Part shown: positions 8,990 to 31,304 of the stretch, in pieces
Layout: each line of letters begins with the position of its first letter
How positions within the stretch are numbered: the first letter of the stretch is position 1
Origin: an uncultured Streptococcus sp.
GTDB lineage: Bacteria; Bacillota; Bacilli; Lactobacillales; Streptococcaceae
NCBI GenBank assembly: GCA_938020365.1
Contig: CALIIB010000107.1
Span: 292-64,291 of the forward strand
Direction: 5' to 3'
DNA length: 64,000 nucleotides
Notes under the pieces: generated by a model
The model's database searches: none
Told to the model about the DNA's origin: nothing
The model's input: only the letters and a program-made list of their open reading frames with translations
Program-made: the position numbers and the translations under genes

Positions 8990-9007
8990 ACTGTCAGTTT
9001 CCTCCTC

Positions 9008-18167: not shown

Positions 18168-18189
18168 TTTGTTCACCTTTTTGTGGACT
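18168..18189. repeat. attL core (direct repeat)
   Basis: TTTGTTCACCTTTTTGTGGACT, identical to 31283-31304. Its last base overlaps the integrase stop codon. Confidence 0.85.
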
Positions 18190-19349
18190 TACAGGTCATT
18201 TATGGCTTTTTCGTAGTATGAAACAGCCTCTTTTTCTTTGTCCTTGGATAGGTGACTGTAGATGTCCATGGTCATAGCCAAGGTAGCATGGCCTAACCGA
18301 TATTGTAATTCTTTATAGCTGATGCCAGCATTGAGCAATAAACTAGCGTGAGTGTGGCGGAAGGCGTGAAAGGTAAAGCGGGGTATTCCAATCTCTTTGC
18401 AGCGCCGATCCAGGGAATCTTGCCTTGTGGCCATATTCTGATATTCCTTAGTCGGGATAGCAAATACTACAGACGGAGCACGCGCCCCATCTTCTACGAA
18501 TAGTTGCCTTTGCCTATTTTTGTAGAGCTTCAGCATATTGACTGTTTTCCGGTCAATACTAATCACTCTAACCCCTGCCTTACTTTTAGGTGGGCCTACT
18601 AGATCCACCAGCCTATTATAATTCTTTGATATGCTGATGGTCGCATTCTCCAAGTCAATATCAGACCACTCCAGAGCCACTGCTTCCCCAAAGCGACAGC
18701 CAGTCGCAAGCAGTAGGCTATACAGCACATAATCAAAATAATGACTGTATTTTTTGAATGCCAGCTTCTCCATATAGCCTAAAAGAGACTTCAAGTCCTC
18801 CGGAGCGATAAACTTGATTGCTTTACTCTCACGCTTTGGCTTCCTGGGCAGGATAATATCCCTCGCTGGGTTGAATGGCAAGAGCTGCAGTGAAACGCCA
18901 TATTTTAAGATACGACTATTTATCGAGTGAACCACGCCAAAGTGAACCAAGCGACTTGATAAGTCATTGATGAAACTCTGGATATAACTAGCGGCCAGTT
19001 TATCCAGCTTCATCTTTCCAAAGATTGGGACTAGGTGGCTATTCACCATTCTTTCTGTCGCTATGAAGGTTTGTGGTTTGACAGTCAGCCGGTAACTTTC
19101 TAGCCATAACTCAGCCAATTCTTGATAATTCTTCACCCGTACAGTTTTATGAACCGTTGACCCGTTCGCTTTAAAGTCAAGCTGCGCGTGCTGGGCTTTG
19201 CTCTTGACCTCTTTCCTTGTCCGTCCCGTGATACTGGTTTTTACTTTCTTACCTGTTACCTGATCCACTCCCAGATAGACACTTGCGCGATACACGTTGC
19301 TACCGTCTTTCTTTTTGACTTCTGTTATTTTCATGATATACCTTTCCAT
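18189..19349 (-). CDS. int: Tyrosine-type site-specific integrase
   Basis: 386 aa. C-terminal catalytic region ...CRFGEAVAL...HAFRHTHASLLL...LGHATLAMTMDIYSH (R..HxxR..Y). The start may be the ATG at 19334. Confidence 0.93.
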   Translation of the reverse strand: MERYIMKITEVKKKDGSNVYRASVYLGVDQVTGKKVKTSITGRTRKEVKSKAQHAQLDFKANGSTVHKTVRVKNYQELAELWLESYRLTVKPQTFIATERMVNSHLVPIFGKMKLDKLAASYIQSFINDLSSRLVHFGVVHSINSRILKYGVSLQLLPFNPARDIILPRKPKRESKAIKFIAPEDLKSLLGYMEKLAFKKYSHYFDYVLYSLLLATGCRFGEAVALEWSDIDLENATISISKNYNRLVDLVGPPKSKAGVRVISIDRKTVNMLKLYKNRQRQLFVEDGARAPSVVFAIPTKEYQNMATRQDSLDRRCKEIGIPRFTFHAFRHTHASLLLNAGISYKELQYRLGHATLAMTMDIYSHLSKDKEKEAVSYYEKAINDL

Positions 19350-19566
19350 CAGCAGGCAAGCTGTTATTAAAAAGATTTTAGATTGAATTAGGTTTATATC
19401 ATGCTAGGAGTTACGAGAACCCCTCTATTTTCGATTTTAAATAGTTAGACGGTAAATATACCAGAGAAGAAAACACGCGCTTAAACGGGCTTATATTGCG
19501 TTTTAAAACGTAGCATATTTTGGGTGAATAATCTAGGTCAAAAAATGAAATTGAGAGGATAGCAGA

Positions 19567-20553: not shown

Positions 20554-20717
20554 GAGTTCCTTTCTAAAAAATTATGAGTAGTTGAGTTACAAGCCTCTAA
20601 TATGGCGTTGAACTCCGAGCGAACGCCGAGAAATCACGCGCACTGGTGTTAAAATCGGCACTTTCGGCAGCCCTAAAAGAGTAAAAGGTTGATTTTTAGC
20701 TAGGTGGGCTGGGGTAG

Positions 20718-21332
20718 TTAAAAACCTTCATTTTTCCAATCCCTAACAAGAGGAAACATCTCTACTTTTATATCGGGAGTAAGATAGTTACCTGAGGTAC
20801 AATAATTCGAGATTTTTGTCTCTAATATATTTTTAATATCTGTTTGAAATTGTACAGGGATAGTAGATAAAAATTTTAAATTATCTTTGTAATCTTTTAC
20901 CTCTTTAGACAACTTTAGGTCGATATGAGGCTTTAAAGTCATATCAAATCCATCATGCATAGGTTCTTCATCAAACGAACCAGAGTATTCAATAGTTTTT
21001 ATTTTTGATCCATTTCTGTAAACATTCAAAAATGCATAAGCAGGATAATTGCCCCATTGCCAGCCTTCTTCAGGAATTGCTTGACTTTGACTTTCGTCCT
21101 CAAAGTCAACATCAAAAGTAAAATCAAAATCGTAAGGGATATAATCGAAAAAATCAGACGGACGAACGTCTAGAGCTCCGAGTAACTTATTTATTGTATC
21201 AATTCCTATTTTATCACTTTGGTTATTTGCTATTTTAGTTATTGTTGAACGCGCAATCCCAGTTTCATTGGATAAGTGAAGAGTTTTTATTCCTCTATCA
21301 ACCATAAGACGAGCAAGGTTATTTCTTAACAT
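20718..21332 (-). CDS. XRE-family HTH repressor with an unknown C-terminal domain (candidate island master repressor)
   Basis: 204 aa. N-terminal HTH LSNETGIARSTITKIANN. The roughly 130-aa C-terminal part matches no family I recognise. Divergent from the cro-like gene. The gene is AT-rich. Confidence 0.7.
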   Translation of the reverse strand: MLRNNLARLMVDRGIKTLHLSNETGIARSTITKIANNQSDKIGIDTINKLLGALDVRPSDFFDYIPYDFDFTFDVDFEDESQSQAIPEEGWQWGNYPAYAFLNVYRNGSKIKTIEYSGSFDEEPMHDGFDMTLKPHIDLKLSKEVKDYKDNLKFLSTIPVQFQTDIKNILETKISNYCTSGNYLTPDIKVEMFPLVRDWKNEGF

Positions 21333-21529
21333 AATTGAACTCCTTCATTGTTTAACAACATTGTAGCACAAACACTACAAAAAGAGAACTATAACTATCA
21401 AAAAAATATAAAAACTACATTTTGTTATTGACAACTACCAAAAAATATTGTAACATACACTTACCAAAGTGATAGCTAAACGCTACAAAAATATACTTTG
21501 ACCTAACAAAAAACCAAAGGAGGTTATCA
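21333..21529. promoter_or_regulatory. Divergent repressor/cro-like control region
   Basis: Rightward TTGACA (21428-21433), 17 nt, then TAACAT (21451-21456). Leftward extended -10 TGcTACAAT. Inverted repeat TTGTAG-N8-CTACAA (21359-21380), plus further CTACA(A/T) half-sites. Confidence 0.55.
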
Positions 21530-21727
21530 ATGAAGAATAATTTTCGCGTGATTTTGGCAAAAAAGCGCCTAAAAATTTCAACAGTTTCAATAGAAACAGG
21601 TATAGCAAGAAGTACTCTTATACCTTTTTATTATGAGCGTGATGTTAATCCAACCACAAAGACATTGTTAAAACTCGCTGACTATCTAGGCGTTACTATT
21701 GACGAACTACTAACACCAGAAGAATGA
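21530..21727 (+). CDS. Cro-like XRE-family HTH protein
   Basis: 65 aa with HTH VSIETGIARSTLIPFYY. SD AAAGGAGG lies upstream. Confidence 0.75.
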   Translation: MKNNFRVILAKKRLKISTVSIETGIARSTLIPFYYERDVNPTTKTLLKLADYLGVTIDELLTPEE

Positions 21728-21743
21728 GATAGGCAGGCAAACA

Positions 21744-22520
21744 ATGAAGAGGAACTACACGAGGGTCATTGATGAAATGCGAACCACTCACGGTCTGAAC
21801 TTGGTAGCTATCGGCCAACGAATAGGCATAGACCCCCGAACAGTTGGCAAGTGGGCACAGGGCAAGCATAAGCCCAACAAGGAAAGCAGAAAAAGACTAA
21901 ACAAGTTATACAGAGAGGTTAAGCAAGACATGACAACACAAGTAAGTATTTTTGAAGAGACAACAGACCAAGGGCAACTATTACAGGTTGTCACTACTAC
22001 TATTATTCACGGTCAGCCATTGGACATCTACGGCAGTGAACAGGAACCGCTATTTTTAGCTAGGGCGATTGCTGAGATGATTGACTACAGCAAAACATCA
22101 CAAGGATATTATGATGTGCAATCAATGCTAAGAAAAGTAGATGAAGATGAAAAAGTAAAAGGGACACCTTTGGACGGTACTACGGAAACTTTCCGTAGTG
22201 GTCAACAAGTTTGGTTTTTAACTGAGCATGGACTCTATGAGGTGCTTATGAGGTCAACCAAACCAAAAGCCAAAGAGTTTAAAAAAGTAATCAAGCACAT
22301 TCTGAAAGAAATCCGACTAAATGGCTACTACATGGCTGGGAAACTGGTGGAAGAACCACAGACCACTATAAAAGCCCCTGACACGTTGGCAGAGGCAGAG
22401 CGGTATTATATCGATACACTAGCCAAAGCCATTGCAGAGGCTCAAAATATGGACGAGAAGAGCCGTCTGACAAGCAAGCTAACCCGATTCATACAGGAGG
22501 TAGAACCACAATGGAACTAG
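21744..22520 (+). CDS. HTH + Bro-N domain protein (antirepressor-like)
   Basis: 258 aa. N-terminal HTH (IGIDPRTVGKWAQG), then a Bro-N-like core (...PLFLARAIAEMIDY...VWFLTEHGLYEVLMRSTKPKAKEFKKVI). Confidence 0.65.
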   Translation: MKRNYTRVIDEMRTTHGLNLVAIGQRIGIDPRTVGKWAQGKHKPNKESRKRLNKLYREVKQDMTTQVSIFEETTDQGQLLQVVTTTIIHGQPLDIYGSEQEPLFLARAIAEMIDYSKTSQGYYDVQSMLRKVDEDEKVKGTPLDGTTETFRSGQQVWFLTEHGLYEVLMRSTKPKAKEFKKVIKHILKEIRLNGYYMAGKLVEEPQTTIKAPDTLAEAERYYIDTLAKAIAEAQNMDEKSRLTSKLTRFIQEVEPQWN

Positions 22521-23140
22521 TCTACATGGACGGCAAGAAAGAGCCGTACACCACAAGCGAGATAATCTCTGAATGTGCTGGAGTACAGCACCACACTGTA
22601 ACACGCCTACTAAGAAATCACAAAGAGCGATTTACGGCGTTTGGATTTTATGGATTTGAAATCCATAAATTAGACGGAAAAGGACGACCTAAAAAGGTCT
22701 ATCGTTTAAACGAGCAACAAGCTACTCTACTAATCACTTACTTAGACAACACACCGCAAGTTGTTGAGTTCAAGACAAACCTAGTCAAAGCATTCTTTGA
22801 AATGCGGGACGAGCTAACTCAGTTTAAGCTGCAGCGTGCTTTAGAAAAGCCAAAGCGCAAGACTTTGCATGACAGCATAGAAAGCTGGAAGGAAGCTCCA
22901 AAGCACGCGCATAGCACCATTACAAACCTTTTGCTAAAAGGCACTAGCGGCATGAATAAAAAGCAACTGATGGCAGCGCGTGGCGGTCTGACAGGTATCG
23001 ATAGCTTGACCAGTACCGAGCTTGTCAGATACCAAGCCTTGGAAGATATGGCGATAGCTATGATTAACCTAGGCATGACCTATCAGGATATTAAGTCTAT
23101 GGTCTTCAGACCAAAAGAAAACGCACCACAAGGCGCGTGA
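22511..23140 (+). CDS. Rha-family phage regulatory protein
   Basis: 209 aa. EPYTTSEIISECAGVQHHTVTRLLRNHKERF...YRLNEQQATLLITYLDN is typical of the Phage_pRha family. Confidence 0.7.
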   Translation: MELVYMDGKKEPYTTSEIISECAGVQHHTVTRLLRNHKERFTAFGFYGFEIHKLDGKGRPKKVYRLNEQQATLLITYLDNTPQVVEFKTNLVKAFFEMRDELTQFKLQRALEKPKRKTLHDSIESWKEAPKHAHSTITNLLLKGTSGMNKKQLMAARGGLTGIDSLTSTELVRYQALEDMAIAMINLGMTYQDIKSMVFRPKENAPQGA

Positions 23141-23422
23141 GAGCAACAAAAAAGGCTTACCGAGACCAATCAGCAAAGCCTTTCGCACTATCACTAAAAC
23201 ATAATAAACAAGCAGGCAAGCTGTTATTAAAAGGGTTTTAGTAAAGATTTATACCTAGATTATAGCATATCTAGGACACTTTGACCATACGGAGAGCGCC
23301 AACTCTTTAAACTGGTACTTTCTCACGCTTTCAAACTTTGGCGAGTCTGAGCGTAGGGAAATCATGTATAAGAAACAACCATTCAAAAAACTCTAAATAC
23401 ATAAAAAATCGAGGTAAATACC

Positions 23423-23725
23423 ATGAAAAAACAAGACCAAAATCAAACAGTTGCTCTGACAGTTAAGCAAATCAAAGAACAAGGCCGACGTGCTACAAAC
23501 GTTATGACGAGAATAGATACTCTAAAAGGATATGCTAACAGTCTTATGCTAGCCATGGACAGCGAGCCAGATAGAACTGTTCTATTGAGCTGCCTAAATA
23601 ACTTTCTAAGCCAGGTATATGACCAGATGGATGTAGTGCATCAGGAACTAGACGCTGTGGCATATCAGCTACTGGAATGTGACAATCCAGAAGAACTAAA
23701 AGCCTATCTGAGCGCTAAAGGATGA
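23423..23725 (+). CDS. Hypothetical protein (helical)
   Basis: 100-aa ORF with SD GAGG, in the island early operon. No recognisable motif. Confidence 0.5.
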   Translation: MKKQDQNQTVALTVKQIKEQGRRATNVMTRIDTLKGYANSLMLAMDSEPDRTVLLSCLNNFLSQVYDQMDVVHQELDAVAYQLLECDNPEELKAYLSAKG

Positions 23726-23747
23726 AAAAACAGAGGGAGTTATTAAA

Positions 23748-23918
23748 ATGAGCGAGCTACTAGGTGCAATTTTAACACTACTACTTTTCTTTCTAGCTGG
23801 CGTATGTGCTGAGCTGTTTCACTCCTGGGCTATTGCTTACAGACGCCGAGGGTATATCACCAAACGGCAACTCAGAAAGATGGAAAAATGGCTTGAAACA
23901 ATGGAGGGCAGAGGATGA
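23748..23918 (+). CDS. Small membrane protein (56 aa; absent from the ORF track)
   Basis: Preceded by GGGAG. Sequence MSELLGAILTLLLFFLAGVCAELF... has one TM helix followed by a basic tail. Its stop overlaps the next ATG (ATGA). Confidence 0.5.
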   Translation: MSELLGAILTLLLFFLAGVCAELFHSWAIAYRRRGYITKRQLRKMEKWLETMEGRG

Positions 23919-24130
23919 CGGATAAAACGAATGATATTCTAGTGGACTATGAAGGGCTTTGCGGACAGTTAAAGGACATTCTGGAGGTTTTAGAATTAGC
24001 TAGCGCAGAGGAGGGGCAGAGAACTTTTCCCCTACTCCATACAGCTAACCACGCTCTAAAACAACTCATTTCAGAACACGACGCCCTAGCCGAGAAATAC
24101 CGAAAGGAGGGCGGCCATGACGGAGCTTGA
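23915..24130 (+). CDS. Hypothetical protein
   Basis: 71-aa ORF, translationally coupled on both sides. Confidence 0.5.
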   Translation: MTDKTNDILVDYEGLCGQLKDILEVLELASAEEGQRTFPLLHTANHALKQLISEHDALAEKYRKEGGHDGA

Positions 24131-24449
24131 AGAAAGAATTTTAAGATTGATACCCGTAGGGGCGGACGAGCCACGCGCAGGGCGGGATATAGCCAATGTG
24201 CTAGGGCTAGAGATGAGAGCCTTACGAGATCATATTCTCCGGCTTATCGTTCGCTATGGTATTCCCATTGTGGCCAAACGTGGGGCAAGTAACGGCTACT
24301 ATATCCCTGCTAACGATACCGAACGCCTAGTAGGTATCAGAGAGCTAAAGGCTCAGTATGACACAGAGGGAAAGCGTCTAGATGTGCTTATCAAAGCCGA
24401 TCTAGAAAGCTACAAAGAGCTGCTGAAGGGAGCTGATCAGAATGTTTAG
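24117..24449 (+). CDS. Winged-helix-like DNA-binding protein (hypothetical)
   Basis: 110 aa. The RAGRDIANVLGLEMRALRDHILRLIVRYGIPIV segment looks like a wHTH. The call is an inference. Confidence 0.45.
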   Translation: MTELEERILRLIPVGADEPRAGRDIANVLGLEMRALRDHILRLIVRYGIPIVAKRGASNGYYIPANDTERLVGIRELKAQYDTEGKRLDVLIKADLESYKELLKGADQNV

Positions 24450-24717
24450 TCTCAGCAAAGAAAGTGAATATGAGCTAACTCATGGCGTTCTGGAGCTTGT
24501 GGAGAACTATCTAGAAGCGCGTGAGAGTACAAAACCACGCTTGACAGGGTTAATTTCAGCCCAGCAAGCAATGGACGAACTGGATATAAAATATAAGACA
24601 TTGCAACGATGGGAAAAGGCGGGACTAAGACGATACAAGCCACCACTAGAGGATGCTAGGAAAATCTATTATAGAGTTTCGGACGTGCTGAAGTTTCTGG
24701 GGGTGGAAAATGGCTAG
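24442..24717 (+). CDS. Excisionase/MerR-type HTH protein (AlpA/Xis-like)
   Basis: 91 aa. ISAQQAMDELDIKYKTLQRWEKAGL...YYRVSDVLKFL resembles an HTH_17 excisionase fold. Confidence 0.55.
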   Translation: MFSLSKESEYELTHGVLELVENYLEARESTKPRLTGLISAQQAMDELDIKYKTLQRWEKAGLRRYKPPLEDARKIYYRVSDVLKFLGVENG

Positions 24718-24865
24718 CTTTGAAAGATTCCCCGGACAGAGAAAATCTGTCCGGACTACCAACGGCTACACTTGGAAAAATAGACAATTAACGCTTGAGC
24801 AACGCAAAGAGTTACAACAATTAAAGAAAATGAAAAAGAAACGATTGAAAAACCAGAAAGGATAA
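24710..24865 (+). CDS. Small basic protein (51 aa; absent from the ORF track)
   Basis: ATG overlaps the preceding stop. Sequence MASFERFPGQRKSVRTTNGYTWKNRQLTLEQRKELQQLKKMKKKRLKNQKG. Ends 3 nt before the rep ATG. Confidence 0.4.
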   Translation: MASFERFPGQRKSVRTTNGYTWKNRQLTLEQRKELQQLKKMKKKRLKNQKG

Positions 24866-24868
24866 CCA

Positions 24869-26098
24869 ATGACAGAAATTAAAAAACTAGGACAAGTTCC
24901 TGCTGAGACAATAGGGCCCTCTGCTAGCATTTTGACAGGATTGTTGAGACGCGGGCAAGTATTGGGTATATCGGCACCAAGAAGATCCTTAAAGACTAGC
25001 GTAGTTATTTCCCTAGCTCTATCTTTAGTCCAAGGGAGTAATTGGCTAGAGTGGAAGAGTAAAAGAGCTTTCAACGTCTTGTATATCAATACGAATCATA
25101 AAGAAAACGACTGTTTTAGTAAGTTCATGCAGATTGCCCAACTTTTAGAAGTTGAGCAAAAAGATCTTGACAATATTTCTATCTTAACTCTTCCAAAGTC
25201 AACGGCTTTAGAAGAGTTAGCCAAAGTTGTAAAAGATAAAGTACCAAACAACGCTTTTCAAGTGGTTATTATTGATAGTATTGATAATTTGAAATTACTA
25301 CAGTTTGGGGGCTCCTTAGGGGATTATTTGCAACAGATTAACCAACACGTAGGCGGCGGCCTGATCTATACACAAAGTCATAGAGATAGACCGAAAGGGA
25401 CTACGGAAAGTTCAGACTTTGCGCAGTGGTCAGAGTCTCTAGCTCATTGCGATAGCTTGTTGGAATTTTTCAAGATGGAATTAGATCCAGAATTGTTACG
25501 CCTAGAGAGGCTAGAAGCCGTCTGGGATTTGGCCAAGAATGTAATGACTACGCACAATAAAAGATATTTTCAGCTAAACGTAACAAATGATTATATCAGT
25601 TTTAAAAACAAGAGAGCAACAAGCGAGGATCTACGAAATCATATTGAGGTAGCGCTAGAACCTTTACCTACTGAACAGACGCAGGAAATTCTAACACATT
25701 TTGATAACATAGATTTGCCGTTAAAAACGCGAACTTATTGGAGACTTGAAGCAGTTACCTCGGAAGCTGATTACGACGGGGAGAAAAATTTTCTTTTCTA
25801 CTATCCACAGTTGATAAATGATAAGGAGAAAATATTAGCCTATCACGAACCAGGGTTACCACTTTCAAAAGAACAGAAAGAAAAAGCATGGGCTAATGAA
25901 GAAACGAAAGAAAAAGCGACAAACAAATTAAAATCTATGATAGCAAACTTTGAACAGGCGAATAATAGACTACCCAATAAGTCAGAGCTTTCTCGTTTTG
26001 CCAAAATCAGCAGACCTACCTTAGACAAATTGATTGATGAATCCGATAATAACATAGTGGTCGTCGATGGAATGATACAAGAAAACCCTGCTTATTAA
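24869..26098 (+). CDS. Replication initiator, RepA/AAA_25-like ATPase with an atypical P-loop
   Basis: 409 aa. P-loop-like GISAPRRSLKTS and Walker B VVIIDSID. Immediately followed by the iteron field, as with SaPI/PICI Rep-ori pairs. Confidence 0.6.
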   Translation: MTEIKKLGQVPAETIGPSASILTGLLRRGQVLGISAPRRSLKTSVVISLALSLVQGSNWLEWKSKRAFNVLYINTNHKENDCFSKFMQIAQLLEVEQKDLDNISILTLPKSTALEELAKVVKDKVPNNAFQVVIIDSIDNLKLLQFGGSLGDYLQQINQHVGGGLIYTQSHRDRPKGTTESSDFAQWSESLAHCDSLLEFFKMELDPELLRLERLEAVWDLAKNVMTTHNKRYFQLNVTNDYISFKNKRATSEDLRNHIEVALEPLPTEQTQEILTHFDNIDLPLKTRTYWRLEAVTSEADYDGEKNFLFYYPQLINDKEKILAYHEPGLPLSKEQKEKAWANEETKEKATNKLKSMIANFEQANNRLPNKSELSRFAKISRPTLDKLIDESDNNIVVVDGMIQENPAY

Positions 26099-26109
26099 CA
26101 ACTTTAAAC

Positions 26110-26362
26110 ATGTAAAGAGTTGTAAACTTTACAAATGTAAAAGTTGTAAAAAGGTGTAAAAAAAGTGTAAAAATTTTACATGATTTTACACCTTTACAAA
26201 CGTAAAATTTACAATCCTTTACAACTCATTGTAAAAGATGTAAAACAATTGTTTTTTTTACACTTGTAAATTATAAAACATAACTCAAAAAGCGTTGGTG
26301 TTATTGGATTTTTTAGGAGTTGTAAAGGGTTGTAAACACTTGTAAATTTTACAGATGTAAAA
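26110..26362. repeat. Iteron field / predicted island replication origin
   Basis: More than 20 copies of (T)GTAAA(A) and its complement TTTACA within about 250 bp, in two clusters (26110-26275 and 26318-26362). Confidence 0.75.
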
Positions 26363-26366
26363 CAAG

Positions 26367-26407
26367 GGACATGACTAGAATAGCCTAGCGTCAATTCTAG
26401 TTTGTCC
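26367..26407. other. 13-bp interrupted inverted repeat next to the ori
   Basis: GGACA-tg-ACTAGAAT ... ATTCTAGT-t-TGTCC. Confidence 0.5.
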
Positions 26408-26421
26408 AATTTTCGTGAAAT

Positions 26422-26492
26422 GTGGAAGTAAGGAGCAGGAACAGGGGCGATTGAGCTACGCCCCCTGTAACCCTGTCCTTTAACACTTCCAC
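26422..26492. other. GC-rich long imperfect hairpin (about 27 bp paired)
   Basis: Outer stem GTGGAAGT/ACTTCCAC, then AAGGA/TCCTT, CAGG/CCTG and CAGGGGCG/CGCCCCCTG around a 9-nt loop. Paired by hand. Confidence 0.5.
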
Positions 26493-26533
26493 GTTGCGCG
26501 GATATATATTGTAAAAAATGGAGTAGTGAACTA

Positions 26534-27010
26534 GTGGTAAAGAAGAGATTAAATAAACGAGTTATCCAAGACAAAAATTTTTTAGCCTTCAAGTCAATGC
26601 CCTACATGGAAAATATTGGAGAGGTTATTAAGTGGGCTGGTGAGAACGAACCGATGAGATATATTTTTGATAGAGTAAGAAAGTATTTAGTATTTGATAA
26701 AGCTATTTGTAAGTGGCAAGGTAGGAATTATGGAAAGCAGTCCAGGGAGTTGCTTTCTAAAACCCCACGTTTAAGGTACATCACAAAGAGTATATATGAG
26801 AAGATGGAAGAAAGTGAATTGGATCTTCTTCCACCACAAAATGGAGGTTCTGCTTCTTATATTTCTGAATGGGAAACTTTTAAAAACAGTGAGCTTGTCC
26901 AGACCTTGAAGCATGAAGACAAACTACTAAAATATTTTGTAATTTTAGCTATACAACAGGGGTATATTATTCTCGATAACCGTAAAAAATTTGTTGGTAT
27001 TGATTATTGA
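26534..27010 (+). CDS. Hypothetical protein (island cargo 1)
   Basis: 158-aa ORF from a GTG start; an alternative ATG lies at 26597. Overlaps the next ORF frame by 4 nt. No recognisable motif. Confidence 0.5.
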   Translation: MVKKRLNKRVIQDKNFLAFKSMPYMENIGEVIKWAGENEPMRYIFDRVRKYLVFDKAICKWQGRNYGKQSRELLSKTPRLRYITKSIYEKMEESELDLLPPQNGGSASYISEWETFKNSELVQTLKHEDKLLKYFVILAIQQGYIILDNRKKFVGIDY

Positions 27011-27033
27011 AAAATAGAAAAAGGAGAAATAAC

Positions 27034-27567
27034 ATGACATTAAAAAAATTTTCAGACAAAGCAAAAACATTCACTTTCACTTACGATTTTAAAGACCTAG
27101 ATACTGCTATGGTAGCAGGTCACGCGCTACTGGGATATATGACTGGAACATATTTCCAGCCTACAATCTCATTGACCTACAAGGATAAGGGAACGCTGGG
27201 CGCTGAGTATGTGGAGGATAAGAAGTTAAACAAGACCTTTAAGCGCATTTGTGACAGTTTCAAAGACTATTACAACCAACCAGTGGACGATGAAGCATTT
27301 GAAGAGCGTTACAAACAGGCGCGCGTGCTTCAACTCAAAGAGTCAGAGGACTTTGAAAGTTTGCTGAACAAGGTCGCAGCCTACGAGCTAGAGCTATTAG
27401 ACTATGCTGATTGCTTGCTTTCTGATAAGCCTATCCCTATGGAATCTATGACCGCTTTTGGTACGTTGGAAACGCTGGGCGATGAAAGTATTAGTCTACT
27501 CAAAAAGTTGGACGTAGAAGGCGAATATAAAGGCCTTGCTGGTTATGTGGCAGAGTCAGAAAGCTAG
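27034..27567 (+). CDS. Hypothetical acidic protein (island cargo 2)
   Basis: ATG at 27034 preceded by AAAGGAG. 177 aa with a strongly acidic C-terminal half. Followed by a terminator. Confidence 0.6.
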   Translation: MTLKKFSDKAKTFTFTYDFKDLDTAMVAGHALLGYMTGTYFQPTISLTYKDKGTLGAEYVEDKKLNKTFKRICDSFKDYYNQPVDDEAFEERYKQARVLQLKESEDFESLLNKVAAYELELLDYADCLLSDKPIPMESMTAFGTLETLGDESISLLKKLDVEGEYKGLAGYVAESES

Positions 27568-27576
27568 AACTATTAA

Positions 27577-27598
27577 GAGAGGCCTCAGCCTCTTTTTG
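27577..27598 (+). terminator. Rho-independent terminator
   Basis: AGAGGC-ctca-GCCTCT followed by TTTTT. Confidence 0.7.
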
Positions 27599-27652
27599 TG
27601 GCTTAATTGCTACTTATCCCAATAGATTTGGGGTTTTCTGTATATAGATATT

Positions 27653-28180
27653 TTGGAGCAGATGGAAACTATAAAATCAATAGCCATAGAGACATTTATA
27701 AAGCCTATGAAAATCAATAATATCTCTCATGGTATAGCTAAATTAGACAGCAAAAAACTAGAAATAGACTTAGATAATTTATGGATCACCCTTGGCAAAG
27801 ACTACTTTGATTTAGATAGAATATCAGGGACTAAGGGAGGCTATCTCTACTTCTTTCTATGCCCTATCTGCAGCAAGCGGTGCAGAAAACTCTTTAAGCG
27901 ACATATACTTTATGGTTGTGGATCATGCCAGAAAATACATAAGTCAACCCTAAACCGCAGTAAGACAGATTGCCAATACTATTGGGAGAGAGCACTGAGA
28001 GAGGCTAGAAAGGTAGAGCCGGGCTGGAGTCCCAAACGTGGCGGATATATGTTTGATGCTTTTCCTGAACGACCTAAGTATATGAAACGCGCCAGGTATT
28101 ATAAGCACTATCAAAAATTCCTGAACTATACTAGAAAAGGTGACAGTCTTTGGATGAATGGTTTGGGTAGATTGAGGTAG
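27653..28180 (+). CDS. Hypothetical basic zinc-ribbon protein (island cargo 3)
   Basis: 175 aa from a TTG start; an ATG lies at 27662. CPIC-x15-CGSC motif in a Lys/Arg/Tyr-rich sequence. Confidence 0.55.
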   Translation: MEQMETIKSIAIETFIKPMKINNISHGIAKLDSKKLEIDLDNLWITLGKDYFDLDRISGTKGGYLYFFLCPICSKRCRKLFKRHILYGCGSCQKIHKSTLNRSKTDCQYYWERALREARKVEPGWSPKRGGYMFDAFPERPKYMKRARYYKHYQKFLNYTRKGDSLWMNGLGRLR

Positions 28181-28431
28181 CTTCTCGGCAACTAAACGGA
28201 ATAGCTAAAGTTCTAAAAAATACCAGATTTTGGGTTATGCTGCGCGTGCTCGAACCTCGAGCGAACATAGAGAAATAGCAAAATATCCCCTGTCATTTAT
28301 CAAGCAGAGAAGGAACAAATATCTCGCCTTATCTGTTTACAACATGCTTTCAAACATGGACAATTATGGACATAACCCGCCAGTCGTCTAAAATATAAAA
28401 AGCCAAGACGCCCCGCCTCAGCTTGATCGAT

Positions 28432-28785
28432 TCATGCTTCAAAAATGAAGTTATAGAGTTGAACAACCTTCTGAAAGCTCGGTGTGTCCATGGTGGTGAT
28501 TTTTTGCGCCTGGCGTTCTCGAAAGTCGAAGGTGTAGAGCTGGAGCGGATTCACTGAGCCGTCTACCTCAGAGGATAGAACAGGAACCAGCAAGCCTAGC
28601 TTTTCTAGTTTCTTCTGGCCATGCGTAACAGGGCAGACGGCAACGAAGCCAGTGCGTTCTGAGTATTCCTTACGAGATACCACCACGGCAGGGCGGCGCT
28701 TCTGTATCTCACGCCCAACAGATGGATCAAAGTCTATCCAGATGATATCCTGCTTTTCTGGGATATAGTTAGATTTCGCTGTCAA
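28432..28785 (-). CDS. mazF: MazF/PemK-family endoribonuclease toxin
   Basis: 117 aa. The IIWIDFDPSVGREIQKRRPAVVVS...VCPVT pattern is typical of PemK/MazF. Confidence 0.85.
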   Translation of the reverse strand: MTAKSNYIPEKQDIIWIDFDPSVGREIQKRRPAVVVSRKEYSERTGFVAVCPVTHGQKKLEKLGLLVPVLSSEVDGSVNPLQLYTFDFRERQAQKITTMDTPSFQKVVQLYNFIFEA

Positions 28786-28984
28786 GTACTTTCACCCCTT
28801 CAAAGTCATTTTCCATACGGAGATCAGCCGCTTCAGCGAATGGATCTGCAATCTTTGGAGCTAGGACAATCACATTATCAACGCCCTTGTAAACGACCAT
28901 TTCTTGACCTTCCGGGACATCAAGCGCCTTAGGAATGGTCACAGTCAGAGAGTTCCCAACTTTACGGGTTTTTACTGTATTCAT
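28769..28984 (-). CDS. mazE: MazE/AbrB-SpoVT-family antitoxin
   Basis: MNTVKTRKVGNSLTVTIPKAL (SpoVT/AbrB swapped hairpin). ATG at 28984 with SD AAAGGAG. Overlaps the mazF start. Confidence 0.8.
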   Translation of the reverse strand: MNTVKTRKVGNSLTVTIPKALDVPEGQEMVVYKGVDNVIVLAPKIADPFAEAADLRMENDFEGVKVLDSEI

Positions 28985-29117
28985 TTCTTTTCTCCTTTGT
29001 TTGTATATATAAAGTATATACCGAAAAAGAGAGAAAAGCAAGCAAAAAGCCAGCCTTGCGACTGACTCCTTGGTATAGATTTAATAGATTTATTATACCA
29101 CAAGAGGAGGCCAAAGC

Positions 29118-29552
29118 GTGACACCAGAGCAAGTAAAAGCAAAGTTAGAAGGTATTAGATGGTTAGATAAAGAGATTCAGAGTTTGCAGTTAGAACTTCA
29201 GTATTTAGATCAAGGTTTATTTAAAAAATCAACTCTGACACAAACCAAAGTCCAGACTAGTAGAGTGAACAATACAGAGAATGAACTTGTCTATGTTTTG
29301 AAGTTGAAAGAAGATATACAAAACAGACTCTCCAATCTAATCAATGAACGTTTAGAAACTTCTAAACTCATTGACAAGCTGAGCGATCCTCTTGAAAGGT
29401 CAGTATTGCGGATGTTCTATGTCAATCACTTGGAAATATGGAATATCGAAGACAAGATAGAAAAGTCAAAAACTACAATTTACAGGATAAAGAGTTCAGG
29501 AATAAAGAAGCTTGCTAAGCTCATGGATGATAGAGCTTCTAAACTTACTTAG
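29118..29552 (+). CDS. DUF1492 / ArpU-like sigma-70 region-4-type transcriptional regulator
   Basis: 144 aa from a GTG start with SD GAGGAGG. Coiled-coil N-terminus. C-terminal LERSVLRMFYVNHL...KTTIYRIKSSGIKKLAKL resembles a sigma region 4 HTH. Confidence 0.55.
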   Translation: MTPEQVKAKLEGIRWLDKEIQSLQLELQYLDQGLFKKSTLTQTKVQTSRVNNTENELVYVLKLKEDIQNRLSNLINERLETSKLIDKLSDPLERSVLRMFYVNHLEIWNIEDKIEKSKTTIYRIKSSGIKKLAKLMDDRASKLT

Positions 29553-30005
29553 CAAAGCAGCTGCTTCCGCTGCTTGCCTTTTGGCCAAATGCTTCAGGCT
29601 ATCACTTATACTGTTCAACATTCGGAAACTACCCCTATTTTTTGAACGGGGCTATATTGTTTCGGTTTTAAAGGACGCGGCCTTTTCCGTGCGAAAAATT
29701 CCCTTTTTGAAACTTTAAAGCCATAATATAAACATGATAAGACCAACCTTTCAAGCTAGTCTAACAGCTACAATACTACCCCTTTCTGCTTCAGAGTTGA
29801 TTCATAAGGTGCGTTACCCCCCGCCCCTATGTGGTGGATAAGAGAGCCGCAACAAACTCTCGTCTTACATCACGCGCCATTTTTTCAAATTTTTAGGTAG
29901 GGGGGTAGAACCTAAAAAACATTGATAATACAAGATTTTTAGTCTCGTTATACATAAAAGCGCTCCTGTTTTAGGACTTGTTTCACCGCTAATATCGCCT
30001 TTTAG

Positions 30006-30034
30006 TTGAATACGTGTAACACGTATGATATAAT
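30006..30034 (+). promoter_or_regulatory. hicAB promoter with embedded palindromic operator
   Basis: TTGAAT (30006-30011), 17 nt, then TATAAT (30029-30034). The spacer contains the perfect palindrome ACGTGT-A-ACACGT (30012-30024). Confidence 0.65.
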
Positions 30035-30059
30035 TATCTTGTCAGGAGGTAAAAGCGCT

Positions 30060-30242
30060 ATGCCTATGACACAAAAAGAAATGGTTAAGTTACTGACTGC
30101 CCACGGTTGGATAAAGACCAAAGGCGGCAAGGGGTCGCACGTTAAGCTTGAAAAAGCTGGAGAGCGACCTATAACCATTCCCCACGGTGAGATTAACAAA
30201 TACACCGAAAGGGGTATCAAAAAGCAAGCAGGGCTGTTATAG
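30060..30242 (+). CDS. hicA: HicA-family mRNA interferase toxin
   Basis: MPMTQKEMVKLLTAHGWIKTKGGKGSHVKLEK...ITIPHG. SD AGGAGG lies 8 nt upstream of the ATG at 30060. Confidence 0.85.
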   Translation: MPMTQKEMVKLLTAHGWIKTKGGKGSHVKLEKAGERPITIPHGEINKYTERGIKKQAGLL

Positions 30243-30279
30243 TGACAGCCTACCGCTTGTTTTCTTTTGGAGGTAAACT

Positions 30280-30732
30280 ATGCTTGTCACTTATCCAGCT
30301 TTATTTTATTATGATGATACAGATGGAGCTAATGCTCCTTACTTTGTCACTTTCCCAGACTTTGAGCATTCAGCAACCCAAGGTGAGGATATGGCAGACG
30401 CTATGGCAATGGCTAGCGATTGGTTAGGTATTAACCTAGCGGACTATATCGAGAATGGGCGAGATATTCCCACTCCTAGCCCTATTAACACCTTATCTTT
30501 AGCTGATAATAATCCTTTTCGCGATGATGAGGGTATAACACTGACTTATGACCCCAGCAAATCCTTTGTCTCAATGGTTATGGTTGACGTTGCCGAGTAT
30601 CTAGGCAGCCAAGAGCCTGTAAAGAAAACACTCACTATCCCACGTTGGGCAGATAATCTAGGGCGTGAATTAGGTTTGAACTTCTCACAGACCCTAACAG
30701 ACGCTATTGCTGATAAAAAAATCCATGCTTAA
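30280..30732 (+). CDS. hicB: HicB-family antitoxin
   Basis: 150 aa. N-terminal YPALFYYDDTD..YFVTFPDF..ATQGEDMADAMAMASDWL is a HicB fold. C-terminal RHH-like TIPRWADNLGRELGLNFSQTL. Confidence 0.85.
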   Translation: MLVTYPALFYYDDTDGANAPYFVTFPDFEHSATQGEDMADAMAMASDWLGINLADYIENGRDIPTPSPINTLSLADNNPFRDDEGITLTYDPSKSFVSMVMVDVAEYLGSQEPVKKTLTIPRWADNLGRELGLNFSQTLTDAIADKKIHA

Positions 30733-30848
30733 TAATTAACTATGATATAATTGACTTATAAACAGAGCTTTTCCATCTCCCCTTGAAACAGACTTTTCTG
30801 CGGTAGGAGGTGGGACGGTTCTGTTTTTACCATAAAGGAGTATTTAAC

Positions 30849-31058
30849 ATGGCAAAAGTTAAAGAAAAATGGAACCCAACAATATCCCATATTGTCCCTA
30901 AAGGTACCAAACTAGCAGACGGTACAATATTAGACAAAGAAACAGCCTTAACACAAGAAGAATTTGCTAAAAATCCCCCTGTTATTCCGAAAGGACACTC
31001 TTTTTATAATATTTGGAATAGAATTCTCAGAGAAAAGATAGAAAAAGACGAATTATAA
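30849..31058 (+). CDS. Hypothetical small protein
   Basis: 69 aa from the ATG at 30849, with SD AAAGGAG. No motif recognised. Confidence 0.5.
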   Translation: MAKVKEKWNPTISHIVPKGTKLADGTILDKETALTQEEFAKNPPVIPKGHSFYNIWNRILREKIEKDEL

Positions 31059-31117
31059 AAATACAGTAGGCTTGCGCGTGATAATCGCGTGAATCAGTAT
31101 TGTTGACGTTAACATAA

Positions 31118-31145
31118 TTGATAACCACGCGCTCCATGGTATAAT
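31118..31145 (+). promoter_or_regulatory. Strong outward-facing promoter at the island right end
   Basis: TTGATA, 16 nt, then TGgTATAAT (extended -10). No SD-led ORF lies downstream. Confidence 0.55.
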
Positions 31146-31212
31146 ATACCTATCAGCAATCAGAAACTAAAGTATGGAAAAGTATGTACATATTTCGTCA
31201 GAAAACAAAAAA

Positions 31213-31238
31213 AGCACCTTGTGGGGTGCTAGTTTCTT
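31213..31238 (+). terminator. Terminator-like hairpin 1
   Basis: AGCACC-ttgtgg-GGTGCT followed by AGTTTCTT. Confidence 0.5.
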
Positions 31239-31263
31239 GCCTGCTGAACTCATCAAATTTCAC

Positions 31264-31285
31264 GCCCTTTTTGAGGGCTTTTTTT
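31264..31285 (+). terminator. Rho-independent terminator abutting attR
   Basis: GCCCT-ttttg-AGGGC followed by TTTTTTT. The T-run runs into the att repeat. Confidence 0.65.
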
Positions 31286-31304
31286 GTTCACCTTTTTGTG
31301 GACT
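31283..31304. repeat. attR core (direct repeat)
   Basis: TTTGTTCACCTTTTTGTGGACT, identical to 18168-18189. Confidence 0.85.

What the first reader, a model, noticed from the sequence alone, without database searches (positions are those of the whole stretch)
26534..28180. Three-gene cargo block of unknown function directly downstream of the island origin
In SaPI/PICI elements the position after ori normally holds helper-exploitation genes for capsid remodelling, terminase small subunit functions and interference. Here it holds:
- a 158-aa protein (26534-27010);
- a tightly coupled 177-aa protein with a very acidic C-terminal half (27034-27567), ended by a clean terminator;
- a separately transcribed, very basic 175-aa protein with a CPIC-x15-CGSC zinc ribbon (27653-28180).

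I recognise none of these as a known family, and there is no terS. Either these proteins carry out packaging hijack or interference in a new way, or they are accessory anti-phage or anti-defence cargo. The acidic protein could, for example, be a DNA mimic.
Basis: inference. Interest (0 to 1): 0.65.

Follow-up and report, generated by a model that had tools for sequence, protein, structure and literature searches.

The report
Backbone genes of a cos-type streptococcal satellite
The three unknown genes are real and conserved, but they are backbone parts of a small streptococcal phage satellite rather than cargo; the satellite carries a copied phage packaging-region sequence instead of its own terminase gene, and its zinc-ribbon gene sits where helper phages keep their HNH nuclease gene and belongs to a large uncharacterised family.

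Summary
All three ORFs exist as described, match no curated family, and are under purifying selection (dN/dS 0.12-0.24).

The "cargo block" reading does not hold. The island (18168-31304, 13.1 kb, 22-bp att repeats) is a PICI-type satellite, and its actual cargo is RhuM, MazEF and HicAB.

- **Gene A** always travels with the rep409/iteron-ori cassette (24/24 loci).
- **Gene B** is one of at least three unrelated acidic proteins that fill a fixed slot. The slot ends in a conserved terminator.
- **Gene C** is conserved in 108 phage-collection records, nearly all streptococcal satellites, including SpyCIM1. It belongs to an unnamed Zn-ribbon family (1085 clusters at 50% identity) that lies next to mobile-element replicases across phyla. 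Its confident model (pLDDT 86.7) has no structural neighbour.

The missing terS has a likely explanation. A 96-bp element (29621-29716) is about 82% identical to the HNH-terS intergenic region of full-length streptococcal phages. Where phages have HNH upstream of this element, satellites have C.

Proposed mechanism, not shown: the helper's terminase packages the island through this cos-like site. C acts at that site, and B is a helper-specific binding factor.

The parts
18168..18189 (.). attL: 22-bp direct repeat TTTGTTCACCTTTTTGTGGACT, the left end of the island
   Evidence: It has an exact 22-bp repeat at 31283-31304. It abuts the integrase gene.
18189..19349 (-). Tyrosine integrase
   Evidence: Pfam Phage_integrase 1.4e-24 and Phage_int_SAM_3 3.8e-17.
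24869..26098 (+). rep409: AAA_25-type replication helicase with no primase domain
   Evidence: Pfam AAA_25 6.4e-8. PHROG 2597 'DNA primase' 4.9e-34, matching only the C-terminal half of that profile.
26100..26362 (.). Iteron origin: 21 TGTAAA/TTTACA repeats
   Evidence: Read directly from the sequence and by motif count. It is conserved in all rep409 loci.
26366..26493 (+). Two conserved hairpins between the iterons and gene A, function unknown (regulatory RNA or a single-strand initiation signal)
   Evidence: RNA fold z = -4.7. Conserved in all rep409 loci. Five base pairs keep pairing through compensatory changes in the single divergent locus L098.
26534..27010 (+). Gene A, 158 aa: a companion of the rep409-ori cassette
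   Evidence: rep409 lies upstream in 24/24 loci that encode A, even where identities fall to 40% (rep409) and 49% (A). A also occurs without B and C. dN/dS is 0.18. The only family hit is the unnamed phrog_16687.
27034..27567 (+). Gene B, 177 aa, acidic: a conserved N-terminal beta-beta-alpha-beta-beta-alpha domain (about residues 1-85) followed by a variable acidic helical C-terminal domain
   Evidence: 267 homologues, and hits in 164 phage-collection records (all Streptococcus, essentially all satellites). Many records match only one half of B. AF2 pLDDT is 63. Fold hits are weak and of ferredoxin/Pcc1 type. dN/dS is 0.24.
27578..27599 (+). Intrinsic terminator that ends the A-B unit
   Evidence: dG -15.2 kcal/mol, z = -2.9. 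A terminator is conserved at this position whichever gene lies upstream.
27620..27647 (+). Conserved motif upstream of C, CAATAGATTTGGG(G)TTTTCTGTATATAG: a likely promoter or operator for C
   Evidence: Conserved in S. pyogenes, S. suis and mitis-group loci regardless of the upstream gene. It occurs once in the window. In IMG/VR it is found only in contigs of 7-15 kb. It is absent from phage packaging regions.
27653..28180 (+). Gene C, 175 aa (or 172 aa from ATG 27662): a basic Zn-ribbon protein and a conserved satellite core gene
   Evidence: 115 close homologues. Hits in 108 phage-collection records (all Streptococcus, nearly all satellites). A profile search finds 1085 clusters at 50% identity with E <= 1e-3. 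AF2 pLDDT is 86.7 with no PDB or BFVD neighbour. dN/dS is 0.12.
28432..29041 (-). MazF/PemK toxin (28432-28785) and MazE antitoxin (28769-29041): cargo inserted between C and ltrB
   Evidence: Pfam PemK_toxin 1.2e-20 and MazE_antitoxin 1.6e-6. Present only in the window-like subgroup of loci.
29118..29552 (+). LtrB-family (DUF1492, ArpU-like) late-gene activator homologue
   Evidence: Pfam DUF1492 4.6e-16 and PHROG 36 9.4e-25. DUF1492 is the LtrB family of late activators (PMC3753634).
29621..29716 (+). cos-like element, homologous to the HNH-terS intergenic region of full-length streptococcal phages
   Evidence: About 82% identity to phages Javan522, phiGBSVK-D and OlisA3, lying between their HNH and terS genes. 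The 26-nt core is found in 74 IMG/VR contigs, flanked by HNH and terS in long contigs and preceded by C in short ones. It does not fold as RNA (z = -0.13).
30006..30732 (+). HicA (30006-30242) and HicB (30280-30732) toxin-antitoxin cargo
   Evidence: Pfam HicA_toxin 2.7e-14 and HicB_lk_antitox 8.9e-8.
31283..31304 (.). attR: the second copy of the 22-bp direct repeat

Best explanation
The three ORFs are three separately evolving backbone pieces of a 13.1-kb cos-type streptococcal phage satellite (PICI). They are not one cargo block.

1. **A** belongs to the rep409/iteron-ori replicon cassette. It probably helps that replicon replicate or be maintained.
2. **B** is one of several unrelated acidic, largely helical proteins that occupy a fixed slot ending in a conserved terminator. 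It has a conserved N-terminal domain and a variable acidic C-terminal domain. It is most likely a protein-binding factor matched to particular helper phages, acting in interference or as an adaptor.
3. **C** is a conserved DNA-binding-type zinc-ribbon protein with its own conserved upstream motif. It is coupled to a phage-derived cos-like element.

In helper-type phages the order is HNH endonuclease, element, terS. In satellites it is C, then the element, with no terS.

**Proposed mechanism.** After induction the island replicates from its iteron origin. The helper's TerS/TerL/HNH machinery recognises the island's copy of the cos-like region and packages it, so the island needs no terS. C acts at or near that site, or on the terminase complex, and so favours the island over the helper.

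**Shown here:** the gene reality, the synteny, the modularity, the breadth of the C family, and the homology and position of the cos-like element.

**Inferred:** that the element is a working cos site, and every molecular activity proposed for A, B and C.

**Confidence by part:** about 0.8 that the genes are backbone rather than cargo and that the island is a cos-type satellite; about 0.35 for C acting in packaging at cos; about 0.3 for B as a helper-binding factor.
For: **The element is a PICI.**
- It has att repeats, an integrase, a divergent Cro/C1 repressor pair, an excisionase-like HTH protein, rep plus iterons, and no structural genes.

**B and C are backbone genes.**
- The order rep, B, C, ltrB recurs from mitis-group elements to SpyCIM1.
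- B matches 164 phage-collection records and C matches 108. The published streptococcal satellite set holds 348 (PMC6813308).
- dN/dS is 0.12-0.24.
- Homologues of B (77%) and C (71%) lie in SpnSP33, whose full gene set was reported as expressed (PMC6813308).

**A is linked to rep409.**
- The two co-occur in 24/24 loci.

**The B slot.**
- Among 82 loci it holds B in 53, the unrelated acidic B2 in 26, another acidic protein in 1, A in 1 and terS in 1.
- B and B2 are unrelated (hhalign probability 0.1%).
- S. suis satellites carry a terS (phrog_4102, 7e-32) directly after B or an A-like gene, or between B and C. This marks the region as the packaging zone.

**C and the cos-like element.**
- Window 29621-29716 is about 82% identical to the HNH-terS intergenic DNA of full-length phages.
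- In IMG/VR contigs of 30 kb or more that carry the 26-nt core, HNH lies upstream in 17/20 and terS downstream in 19/20.
- In contigs of 19 kb or less, C lies upstream in 32/43 and there is no terS in 34/43.
- In 22 of 82 genomic loci the element starts within 171 nt of the C stop.
- C subtype tracks the element type (Fisher p = 8e-9) but not B versus B2 (p = 0.81).
- A second satellite group carries a different segment that matches the DNA just downstream of the HNH gene in phage Javan487.

**Precedent.**
- cos-type SaPIs lack terS. They carry a phage cos site plus conserved genes of obscure function (PMC5052747).
Against: - No experiment or structural match assigns an activity to A, B or C.
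- The shared 96-bp element could be a late-promoter or regulator-binding region rather than cos. No virion DNA ends were examined.
- In this window the element lies 1.4 kb from C, with mazEF and ltrB between them.
- The type-1 element was detected in only 29 of 82 C-bearing loci.
- The adjacency of C and the element, and their co-variation, could reflect shared descent rather than function. The Fisher test ignores phylogeny.
- Outside Streptococcus, C homologues sit next to replicases, and no phage-like DNA was found downstream of two that were tested. This fits a replication role equally well.
- Some terS-bearing S. suis satellites appear to lack C.
Confidence: 0.45

Rival explanations
1. C is a replication accessory protein of mobile-element replicons, for example a factor that recognises the origin or priming site, or a helicase partner. 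In Streptococcus it merely happens to lie near the cos-like element.
For: Across phyla, C homologues lie just downstream of unrelated mobile-element replicases (DUF5906, D5_N, DUF3987, DUF927, AAA_25, Prim-Pol, DnaB_C, RepB_primase, VapE), together with AlpA-like and integrase genes. Very small elements such as L105 keep C next to a DnaD-like rep gene. Zinc ribbons are common in priming proteins (general knowledge).
Against: In Streptococcus, C is separated from rep by another gene, a terminator and its own conserved upstream motif. C subtype does not follow rep type: rep409 occurs with C at 79-81% identity, while the 97% C sits next to a different replicase. C subtype does co-vary with the downstream element. 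One accessory protein serving so many unrelated replicases would be unusual.
Confidence: 0.2
2. C is a transcription factor: a satellite zinc-finger regulator that works like P4 delta or Ogr. It would switch on helper late genes or satellite genes, possibly together with LtrB.
For: C is a basic protein of about 170 aa with a zinc ribbon, has its own regulated-looking promoter region, and lies close to an LtrB-family late-activator homologue. P4-type satellites encode a zinc-finger transactivator of similar size (general knowledge).
Against: C and 60 family members gave no Pfam Ogr_Delta hit. The fold search found no transcription factor. The island already encodes an LtrB-type activator. The motif upstream of C is absent from phage packaging regions.
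Confidence: 0.2
3. The genes, B above all, are accessory anti-phage or anti-defence cargo, with the acidic B acting as a DNA mimic.
For: The slot upstream of C holds alternative unrelated acidic proteins, a pattern typical of arms-race genes. S. thermophilus satellites confer phage resistance by an unidentified mechanism (PMC13376191).
Against: PADLOC finds nothing. B and C keep fixed synteny across species rather than behaving as swappable cargo. The island's recognisable cargo lies elsewhere. B's net charge is modest, and its model matches no known DNA mimic, though the model is of low confidence. Interference with the helper would count as satellite backbone function, not as cargo.
Confidence: 0.12
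4. B, possibly together with C, redirects helper capsid size. It would act as an alternative scaffold in the manner of CpmB, Sid or Ccm, so that a 13-kb genome fits a cos-packaged head.
For: A cos-packaged 13.1-kb element, about one third the size of helper-type phages of 38-45 kb, needs either small capsids or packaging as multimers (inference; PMC5052747). All proteins that occupy the B slot are acidic and largely helical, as scaffolding proteins are.
Against: There is no sequence or fold similarity to any capsid or scaffold protein. Helper-type phages that carry HNH usually use capsid delta-domains rather than separate scaffolds (general knowledge). The broad conservation of C argues against a capsid-specific role for C.
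Confidence: 0.12

Closest known systems
cos-type SaPIs (SaPIbov5, SaPIbov4) and their 'operon I-like' region
   Same: A satellite with no functional terS of its own that carries a copy of the helper's cos region downstream of the replication module, together with conserved genes of obscure function. The helpers are cos phages (PMC5052747) that encode an HNH endonuclease (general knowledge).
   Different: There is no Ccm or any HK97-fold protein here, and A, B and C are unrelated to SaPI proteins at the sequence level. The element here lies next to a zinc-ribbon gene. Function as a cos site has not been shown.
Streptococcal satellite prophages and chromosomal islands (SpyCIM1, the Javan satellites, SpnSP33, StCI)
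   Same: The same kind of element. SpyCIM1 has a B-like gene, a C homologue and the same cos-like element in the same order. In the literature these genes are listed only as being of unknown function, and no terminase is reported (PMC4129442).
   Different: This island uses the rep409-plus-A replicon instead of a primase-type module. It also has MazEF and ltrB between C and the element. It is a mosaic: rep409, A and B resemble S. oralis/mitis elements, while C through hicAB resemble S. cristatus elements.
Phage HNH packaging endonucleases (HK97 gp74 and phi12 type)
   Same: The same genomic position, immediately upstream of the shared element. Both are small proteins with four cysteines.
   Different: C has no H-N-H motif, and its two CxxC pairs are only 15 residues apart. 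The hhalign probability is below 2% and there is no Pfam HNH hit. C is not a member of this family.
P4 delta / P2 Ogr zinc-finger late-gene transactivators
   Same: A satellite-encoded, basic, zinc-binding protein of about 170 aa.
   Different: There is no Ogr_Delta profile hit for C or for 60 family members. C has one ribbon rather than two Ogr-like units. This is a resemblance only, and it could not be tested further.
Satellite factors that redirect or interfere with packaging (SaPI Ppi, E. coli PICI Rpp)
   Same: This is the proposed way of working for B and C: small satellite proteins that bind helper packaging proteins and bias packaging towards the satellite.
   Different: No homology could be tested here beyond the negative PHROG and Pfam searches. 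The comparison is functional analogy only.

Membership tests
PICI / phage satellite (element level) | Small integrated element with flanking att repeats and an integrase | tested here: met
   22-bp direct repeats at 18168 and 31283 give a 13,137-bp element, and Pfam identifies an integrase.
PICI / phage satellite (element level) | Divergent repressor/Cro-type regulators, a replication protein with an adjacent iteron origin, and no virion structural genes | tested here: met
   An HTH_26 pair lies at 20718-21332(-) and 21530-21727(+). rep409 is followed by TGTAAA iterons. No structural family was found among the island proteins scanned.
PICI / phage satellite (element level) | Induction and high-frequency transfer by a helper phage | not testable with these tools
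   This needs experiments.
cos-type satellite (as SaPIbov5) | No functional terS of its own, but a copy of the helper phage's cos region | tested here: met
   No TerS hit was found for the island proteins tested. The 96-bp element is homologous to the HNH-terS intergenic DNA of full-length phages.
cos-type satellite (as SaPIbov5) | The element is cleaved by the helper terminase to give cohesive ends | not testable with these tools
   This needs sequencing of virion DNA termini.
Terminase small subunit (for A, B, C) | Profile similarity to TerS families | tested here: not met
   There are no Pfam or PHROG TerS hits. The hhalign probability is 1.4% or less against the helper P27-type TerS and the satellite phrog_4102 TerS.
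HNH endonuclease (for C) | Beta-beta-alpha-metal core with H-N-H residues between the Cys pairs | tested here: not met
   There is no Pfam HNH hit, the Cys pairs are 15 residues apart, no His or Asn is invariant across the family, and the hhalign probability is below 2%.
Ogr/Delta zinc-finger activators (for C) | Match to the Ogr_Delta profile | tested here: not met
   No hit for C or for 60 diverse family members.
Known anti-phage defence systems (for A, B, C) | Match to a PADLOC model | tested here: not met
   No hits at E <= 1.
DNA-mimic proteins (for B) | Dense surface negative charge that imitates the DNA backbone, or a fold like Ocr, ArdA or similar proteins | tested here: inconclusive
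   B has pI 4.6 and a net charge of about -11 over 177 aa. The PDB fold search lists no DNA mimic, but the model is of low confidence (pLDDT 63).
SaPI capsid-remodelling proteins (CpmA, CpmB, Ccm) | Sequence or fold similarity to these proteins or to an HK97 capsid protein | tested here: inconclusive
   No PHROG or Pfam hit was found, and neither is in the PDB fold lists for B or C. A was not modelled. The libraries may not contain the SaPI proteins.
LtrB (DUF1492) late activators (neighbouring gene 29118-29552) | Match to DUF1492 above Pfam's cut-off | tested here: met
   59.3 bits against a cut-off of 21.5. The family was defined in PMC3753634.

The most novel reading that the evidence does not exclude
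C founds a phylum-spanning, previously unnamed class of satellite or island proteins that act at the packaging site. In streptococcal satellites, C would take the place that the HNH accessory nuclease holds in helper phages. It would redirect the helper terminase to the satellite's cos copy, or block cutting of the helper's own cos. The interchangeable acidic proteins in the B slot would be its helper-specific partners.
Probability: 0.25. Interest if true: 0.85.

Novelty: new variant of a known kind. Interest (0 to 1): 0.6.

Why it matters
Streptococcal satellites such as SpyCI, SpnSP and StCI are very common in pathogens and in dairy starter strains. How they use or block their helper phages has remained open since they were described. 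The literature lists the genes after the replication module as unknown and notes that no terminase is present (PMC4129442). The mechanism behind StCI-conferred phage resistance is also still unknown (PMC13376191).

This analysis turns that question into testable parts:

- a candidate cos site shared with HNH-type phages, which also predicts which phages are the helpers;
- a conserved zinc-ribbon gene that sits where the phage HNH gene would be;
- a slot of interchangeable acidic proteins.

The C family is also large, at about 1085 clusters at 50% identity. It has no name or structural relative, and it lies next to mobile-element replicases in many phyla. It could therefore serve as a marker for finding satellite-like islands that current tools miss.

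Tried and rejected
- **Curated libraries.** Pfam, PHROGs, NCBIfam and PADLOC scans and a PDB sequence search of A, B and C gave nothing usable.
- **Fold searches.** Foldseek of the C model against PDB and BFVD, and of the B model against PDB, gave no hit at E <= 0.001. The weak WWE, Cas12 and serine-integrase hits for C, and the Pcc1, DCoH and ferredoxin hits for B, are treated as generic.
- **Remote C relatives.** Pfam and PHROG scans of 60 remote relatives gave only generic zinc-ribbon hits (Zn_ribbon_IS1595, best E = 9e-5). Longer family members showed no informative fusion domains. Every source name found was 'hypothetical protein'.
- **C as a degenerate HNH or a TerS.** Rejected by profile comparison.
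- **B and B2 as diverged homologues.** Rejected (hhalign probability 0.1%).
- **The motif upstream of C as a late promoter shared with phages.** Rejected. It is absent from phage packaging regions and is found only in contigs of 7-15 kb.
- **Rfam.** Nothing above threshold in the island.
- **DT1-type cos sequence (CCACNACAAGGTG).** Absent from the island.
- **Extending the C-cos adjacency beyond Streptococcus.** The DNA downstream of C in Secundilactobacillus gave no phage match, and in Acinetobacter only chance matches.
- **Immediate neighbours of remote C homologues.** Mostly unannotated, so not informative.
Full report
**1. Observation**

- A: 26534-27010, GTG start, 158 aa, pI 9.5.
- B: 27034-27567, ATG start with an AAAGGAGA ribosome-binding site, beginning 23 nt after the A stop. 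It has 177 aa and pI 4.6, and its C-terminal half has pI 4.3.
- C: 27653-28180, 175 aa from TTG. The ATG at 27662 would give 172 aa, the length of its closest database relative (97% identical). pI is 9.8, and the CPIC-x15-CGSC motif is present.
- A strong intrinsic terminator follows B at 27578-27599 (dG -15.2 kcal/mol, z = -2.9).
- None of the three matches Pfam, NCBIfam, PADLOC or PDB sequences. The only PHROG hit is an unnamed family for A.
- All three are under purifying selection. Median dN/dS is 0.18 for A, 0.24 for B and 0.12 for C.

**2. The element**

- A 22-bp direct repeat at 18168-18189 and 31283-31304 bounds a 13,137-bp island.
- From left to right it carries an integrase, a RhuM-family gene, a divergent Cro/C1-type repressor pair, Bro/Rha-type regulators and an excisionase-like HTH protein.
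- These are followed by an AAA_25 helicase-type replication protein (rep409) and about 21 TGTAAA iterons.
- Then come A, B and C, a MazEF pair on the opposite strand, a DUF1492 protein and HicAB.
- DUF1492 is the LtrB family of late-gene activators in streptococcal phages (PMC3753634).
- The island is therefore a PICI-type satellite. Its recognisable cargo is RhuM, MazEF and HicAB, not A, B and C.

**3. B and C are backbone genes**

- B has 267 database homologues and C has 115, all streptococcal.
- In the phage collection, B matches 164 records and C matches 108. All are Streptococcus and nearly all are satellite prophages. The published streptococcal set contains 348 satellites (PMC6813308).
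- The order replication module, B, C, DUF1492 holds from S. mitis elements to SpyCIM1 of S. pyogenes SF370.
- Published work on SpyCI lists these genes only as being of unknown function and notes that no terminase is present (PMC4129442).
- SpnSP33 (MK448640) carries B (77%) and C (71%) homologues. Its full gene set was reported as expressed in planktonic culture (PMC6813308).

**4. A belongs to the replicon**

- A is rare, with 24 homologues and 5 phage-collection records.
- In all 24 loci that encode A, rep409 and its iteron origin lie directly upstream. This holds even in S. acidominimus, where rep409 is 40% identical and A is 49% identical.
- A also occurs in elements that lack B, or both B and C.
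- Between the iterons and A lie two conserved hairpins (26366-26493). Five base pairs keep pairing through compensatory changes in the one divergent locus.
- A is therefore best read as part of the rep409-ori cassette.

**5. The slot upstream of C**

Among 82 C-bearing loci, the gene ending 35-92 nt upstream of C is distributed as follows.

| Gene upstream of C | Loci |
|---|---|
| B | 53 |
| B2, an unrelated 152-aa acidic protein | 26 |
| another acidic 215-aa protein | 1 |
| A | 1 |
| terS (phrog_4102, E = 7e-32), with B just before it | 1 |

- B and B2 show no profile similarity (probability 0.1%).
- B is itself modular. Its N-terminal roughly 85 residues and its acidic C-terminal half are found separately in different satellites. 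The AF2 model is only moderate (pLDDT 63) and has a generic beta-beta-alpha-beta-beta-alpha N-terminal domain.
- Whichever gene occupies the slot, the intergenic DNA keeps a terminator followed by the motif CAATAGATTTGGGTTTTTCYATATAG. This includes S. pyogenes and S. suis.
- The motif occurs only in contigs of 7-15 kb and not in phage packaging regions.
- Several S. suis satellites carry the same terS directly after B or after an A-like gene. This marks the zone as the packaging region.

**6. The C family**

- The AF2 model of C is confident (pLDDT 86.7). It has a beta-rich N-terminal domain containing the zinc ribbon, followed by helices. It has no significant neighbour in PDB or BFVD.
- A profile search of 1.84 billion representative proteins found 1085 clusters at E <= 1e-3.
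- Across a diverse 61-sequence sample of the family, the invariant residues are the four cysteines. G62, P71, R76, P138, P141, M144 and Y149 are nearly invariant. No catalytic-type residue is conserved.
- Remote members give only generic zinc-ribbon hits and are named 'hypothetical' wherever a name exists.
- A genome scan confirmed 350 loci, from Lactobacillales and Bacillaceae to Acinetobacter, Moraxella, Methylobacter, Acidobacteriota and Dehalococcoidia.
- In those loci the C homologue typically lies just downstream of a mobile-element replicase from one of many unrelated families. AlpA-like and integrase genes are nearby, and C is often the last gene before cargo or host genes.

**7. Why there is no terS**

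- The non-coding DNA after the DUF1492 gene contains a 96-bp element (29621-29716). It is about 82% identical to DNA in the full-length phages Javan522 (S. pyogenes), phiGBSVK-D (S. agalactiae) and OlisA3 (S. oralis).
- In all three phages the element lies between the HNH endonuclease gene and terS. By analogy with HNH-dependent cos phages (general knowledge; PMC5052747), this is where the cos site is expected.
- SpyCIM1 has the same element starting 3 nt after its C homologue.
- The exact 26-nt core occurs in 74 IMG/VR contigs, split as below.

| Contig size | Gene upstream of the core | Gene downstream of the core |
|---|---|---|
| 30 kb or more (n = 20) | HNH in 17 | terS in 19 |
| 19 kb or less (n = 43) | C in 32 | no terS in 34 |

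- In the genomic loci the element was found in 29 of 82. It is always downstream of C on the same strand, and in 22 loci it lies within 171 nt of the C stop. In the window-like group, MazEF and ltrB are inserted between C and the element.
- C subtype tracks the presence of this element (p = 8e-9, not corrected for phylogeny). It is independent of whether B or B2 lies upstream (p = 0.81).
- A second satellite group carries a different segment that matches the DNA just downstream of the HNH gene in phage Javan487.
- The element does not fold as RNA (z = -0.13).
- C is not an HNH protein or a TerS (probability 1.8% or less).

**8. Interpretation**

- The island is best read as a cos-type satellite, like SaPIbov5. 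That SaPI lacks a functional terS and carries a phage cos site plus conserved genes of obscure function (PMC5052747).
- The window's island is a mosaic. Its rep409, A and B are 99%, 99% and 90% identical to S. oralis/mitis elements. C through HicAB are about 97% identical to S. cristatus elements. The junction falls in the B-C intergenic region.
- The unit that stays together is therefore C plus the element, not A, B and C.
- I propose that the helper's terminase packages the island through the copied site. C would act at that site or on the terminase complex, B would be a helper-specific binding factor, and A would serve the rep409 replicon.
- These activities are inferred, not shown. The main rivals are a replication role for C, supported by its neighbours across phyla, and a delta/Ogr-like regulatory role.
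- How S. thermophilus satellites confer phage resistance is still unknown (PMC13376191), so these genes are reasonable candidates to test.

**9. Verdict**

The cargo interpretation is not supported, and the hijack interpretation is plausible but unproven.

The element is a new variant of a known kind. Two points deserve follow-up:

- the large unnamed C family;
- the position of C, which replaces HNH upstream of a shared packaging-region element.

Noticed in passing
window 29621-29716: A 96-bp non-coding element is about 82% identical to the HNH-terS intergenic region of full-length streptococcal phages. It is also found directly after the C homologue in SpyCIM1. It is a candidate pirated cos site.
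   Followed up: yes
window 26366-26493: Two conserved hairpins lie between the ori iterons and gene A (fold z = -4.7). Five base pairs keep pairing through compensatory changes in the single divergent locus L098. No Rfam family matches. The element could be a regulatory RNA or a single-strand initiation signal for a replicon that lacks a primase.
   Followed up: partly
window 27567-27653 versus loci L004 and L012: The island is a mosaic. rep409, A and B are 99%, 99% and 90% identical to S. oralis/mitis elements, while C, mazEF, ltrB and hicAB are about 97% identical to S. cristatus elements. The junction lies in the conserved B-C intergenic region.
   Followed up: partly
L083 9447-9947; Javan588 8771-9153; Javan594 9365-9760: Some S. 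suis satellites carry a terS (phrog_4102, about 70% identical to the terS of full phages). It lies between B and C, or directly after B or an A-like gene. These are pac-type variants of the same backbone.
   Followed up: partly
L101 8827-9462 and 9681-10211: The Enterococcus malodoratus and E. avium elements carry two tandem C-family paralogues.
   Followed up: no
L110 7841-8689; L168 9412-10227: In proteobacterial loci a second unknown protein of about 270-280 aa, with an N(S/A)LRHG(I/V)LS motif, lies next to the C homologue, on either side of it.
   Followed up: no
L105 5078-10010: A very small element in Ureibacillus, about 5 kb, holds an integrase, regulators, an excisionase-like gene, a DnaD-like rep gene, a C homologue and one further gene. 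C is thus kept even in minimal elements.
   Followed up: no
window 19567-20553 (-), 28432-29041 (-), 30006-30732 (+): The island's recognisable accessory genes are a RhuM-family protein next to the integrase, a MazF/MazE pair and a HicA/HicB pair.
   Followed up: partly
window 28230-28391: A 53-aa ORF in the 250-nt spacer after C is also present in L004. The spacer matches only other satellites. Whether the ORF codes for a protein was not assessed.
   Followed up: no
window 24869-26098: rep409 matches only the C-terminal (helicase) half of the PHROG 'DNA primase' profile, and the island has no recognisable primase domain.
   Followed up: no
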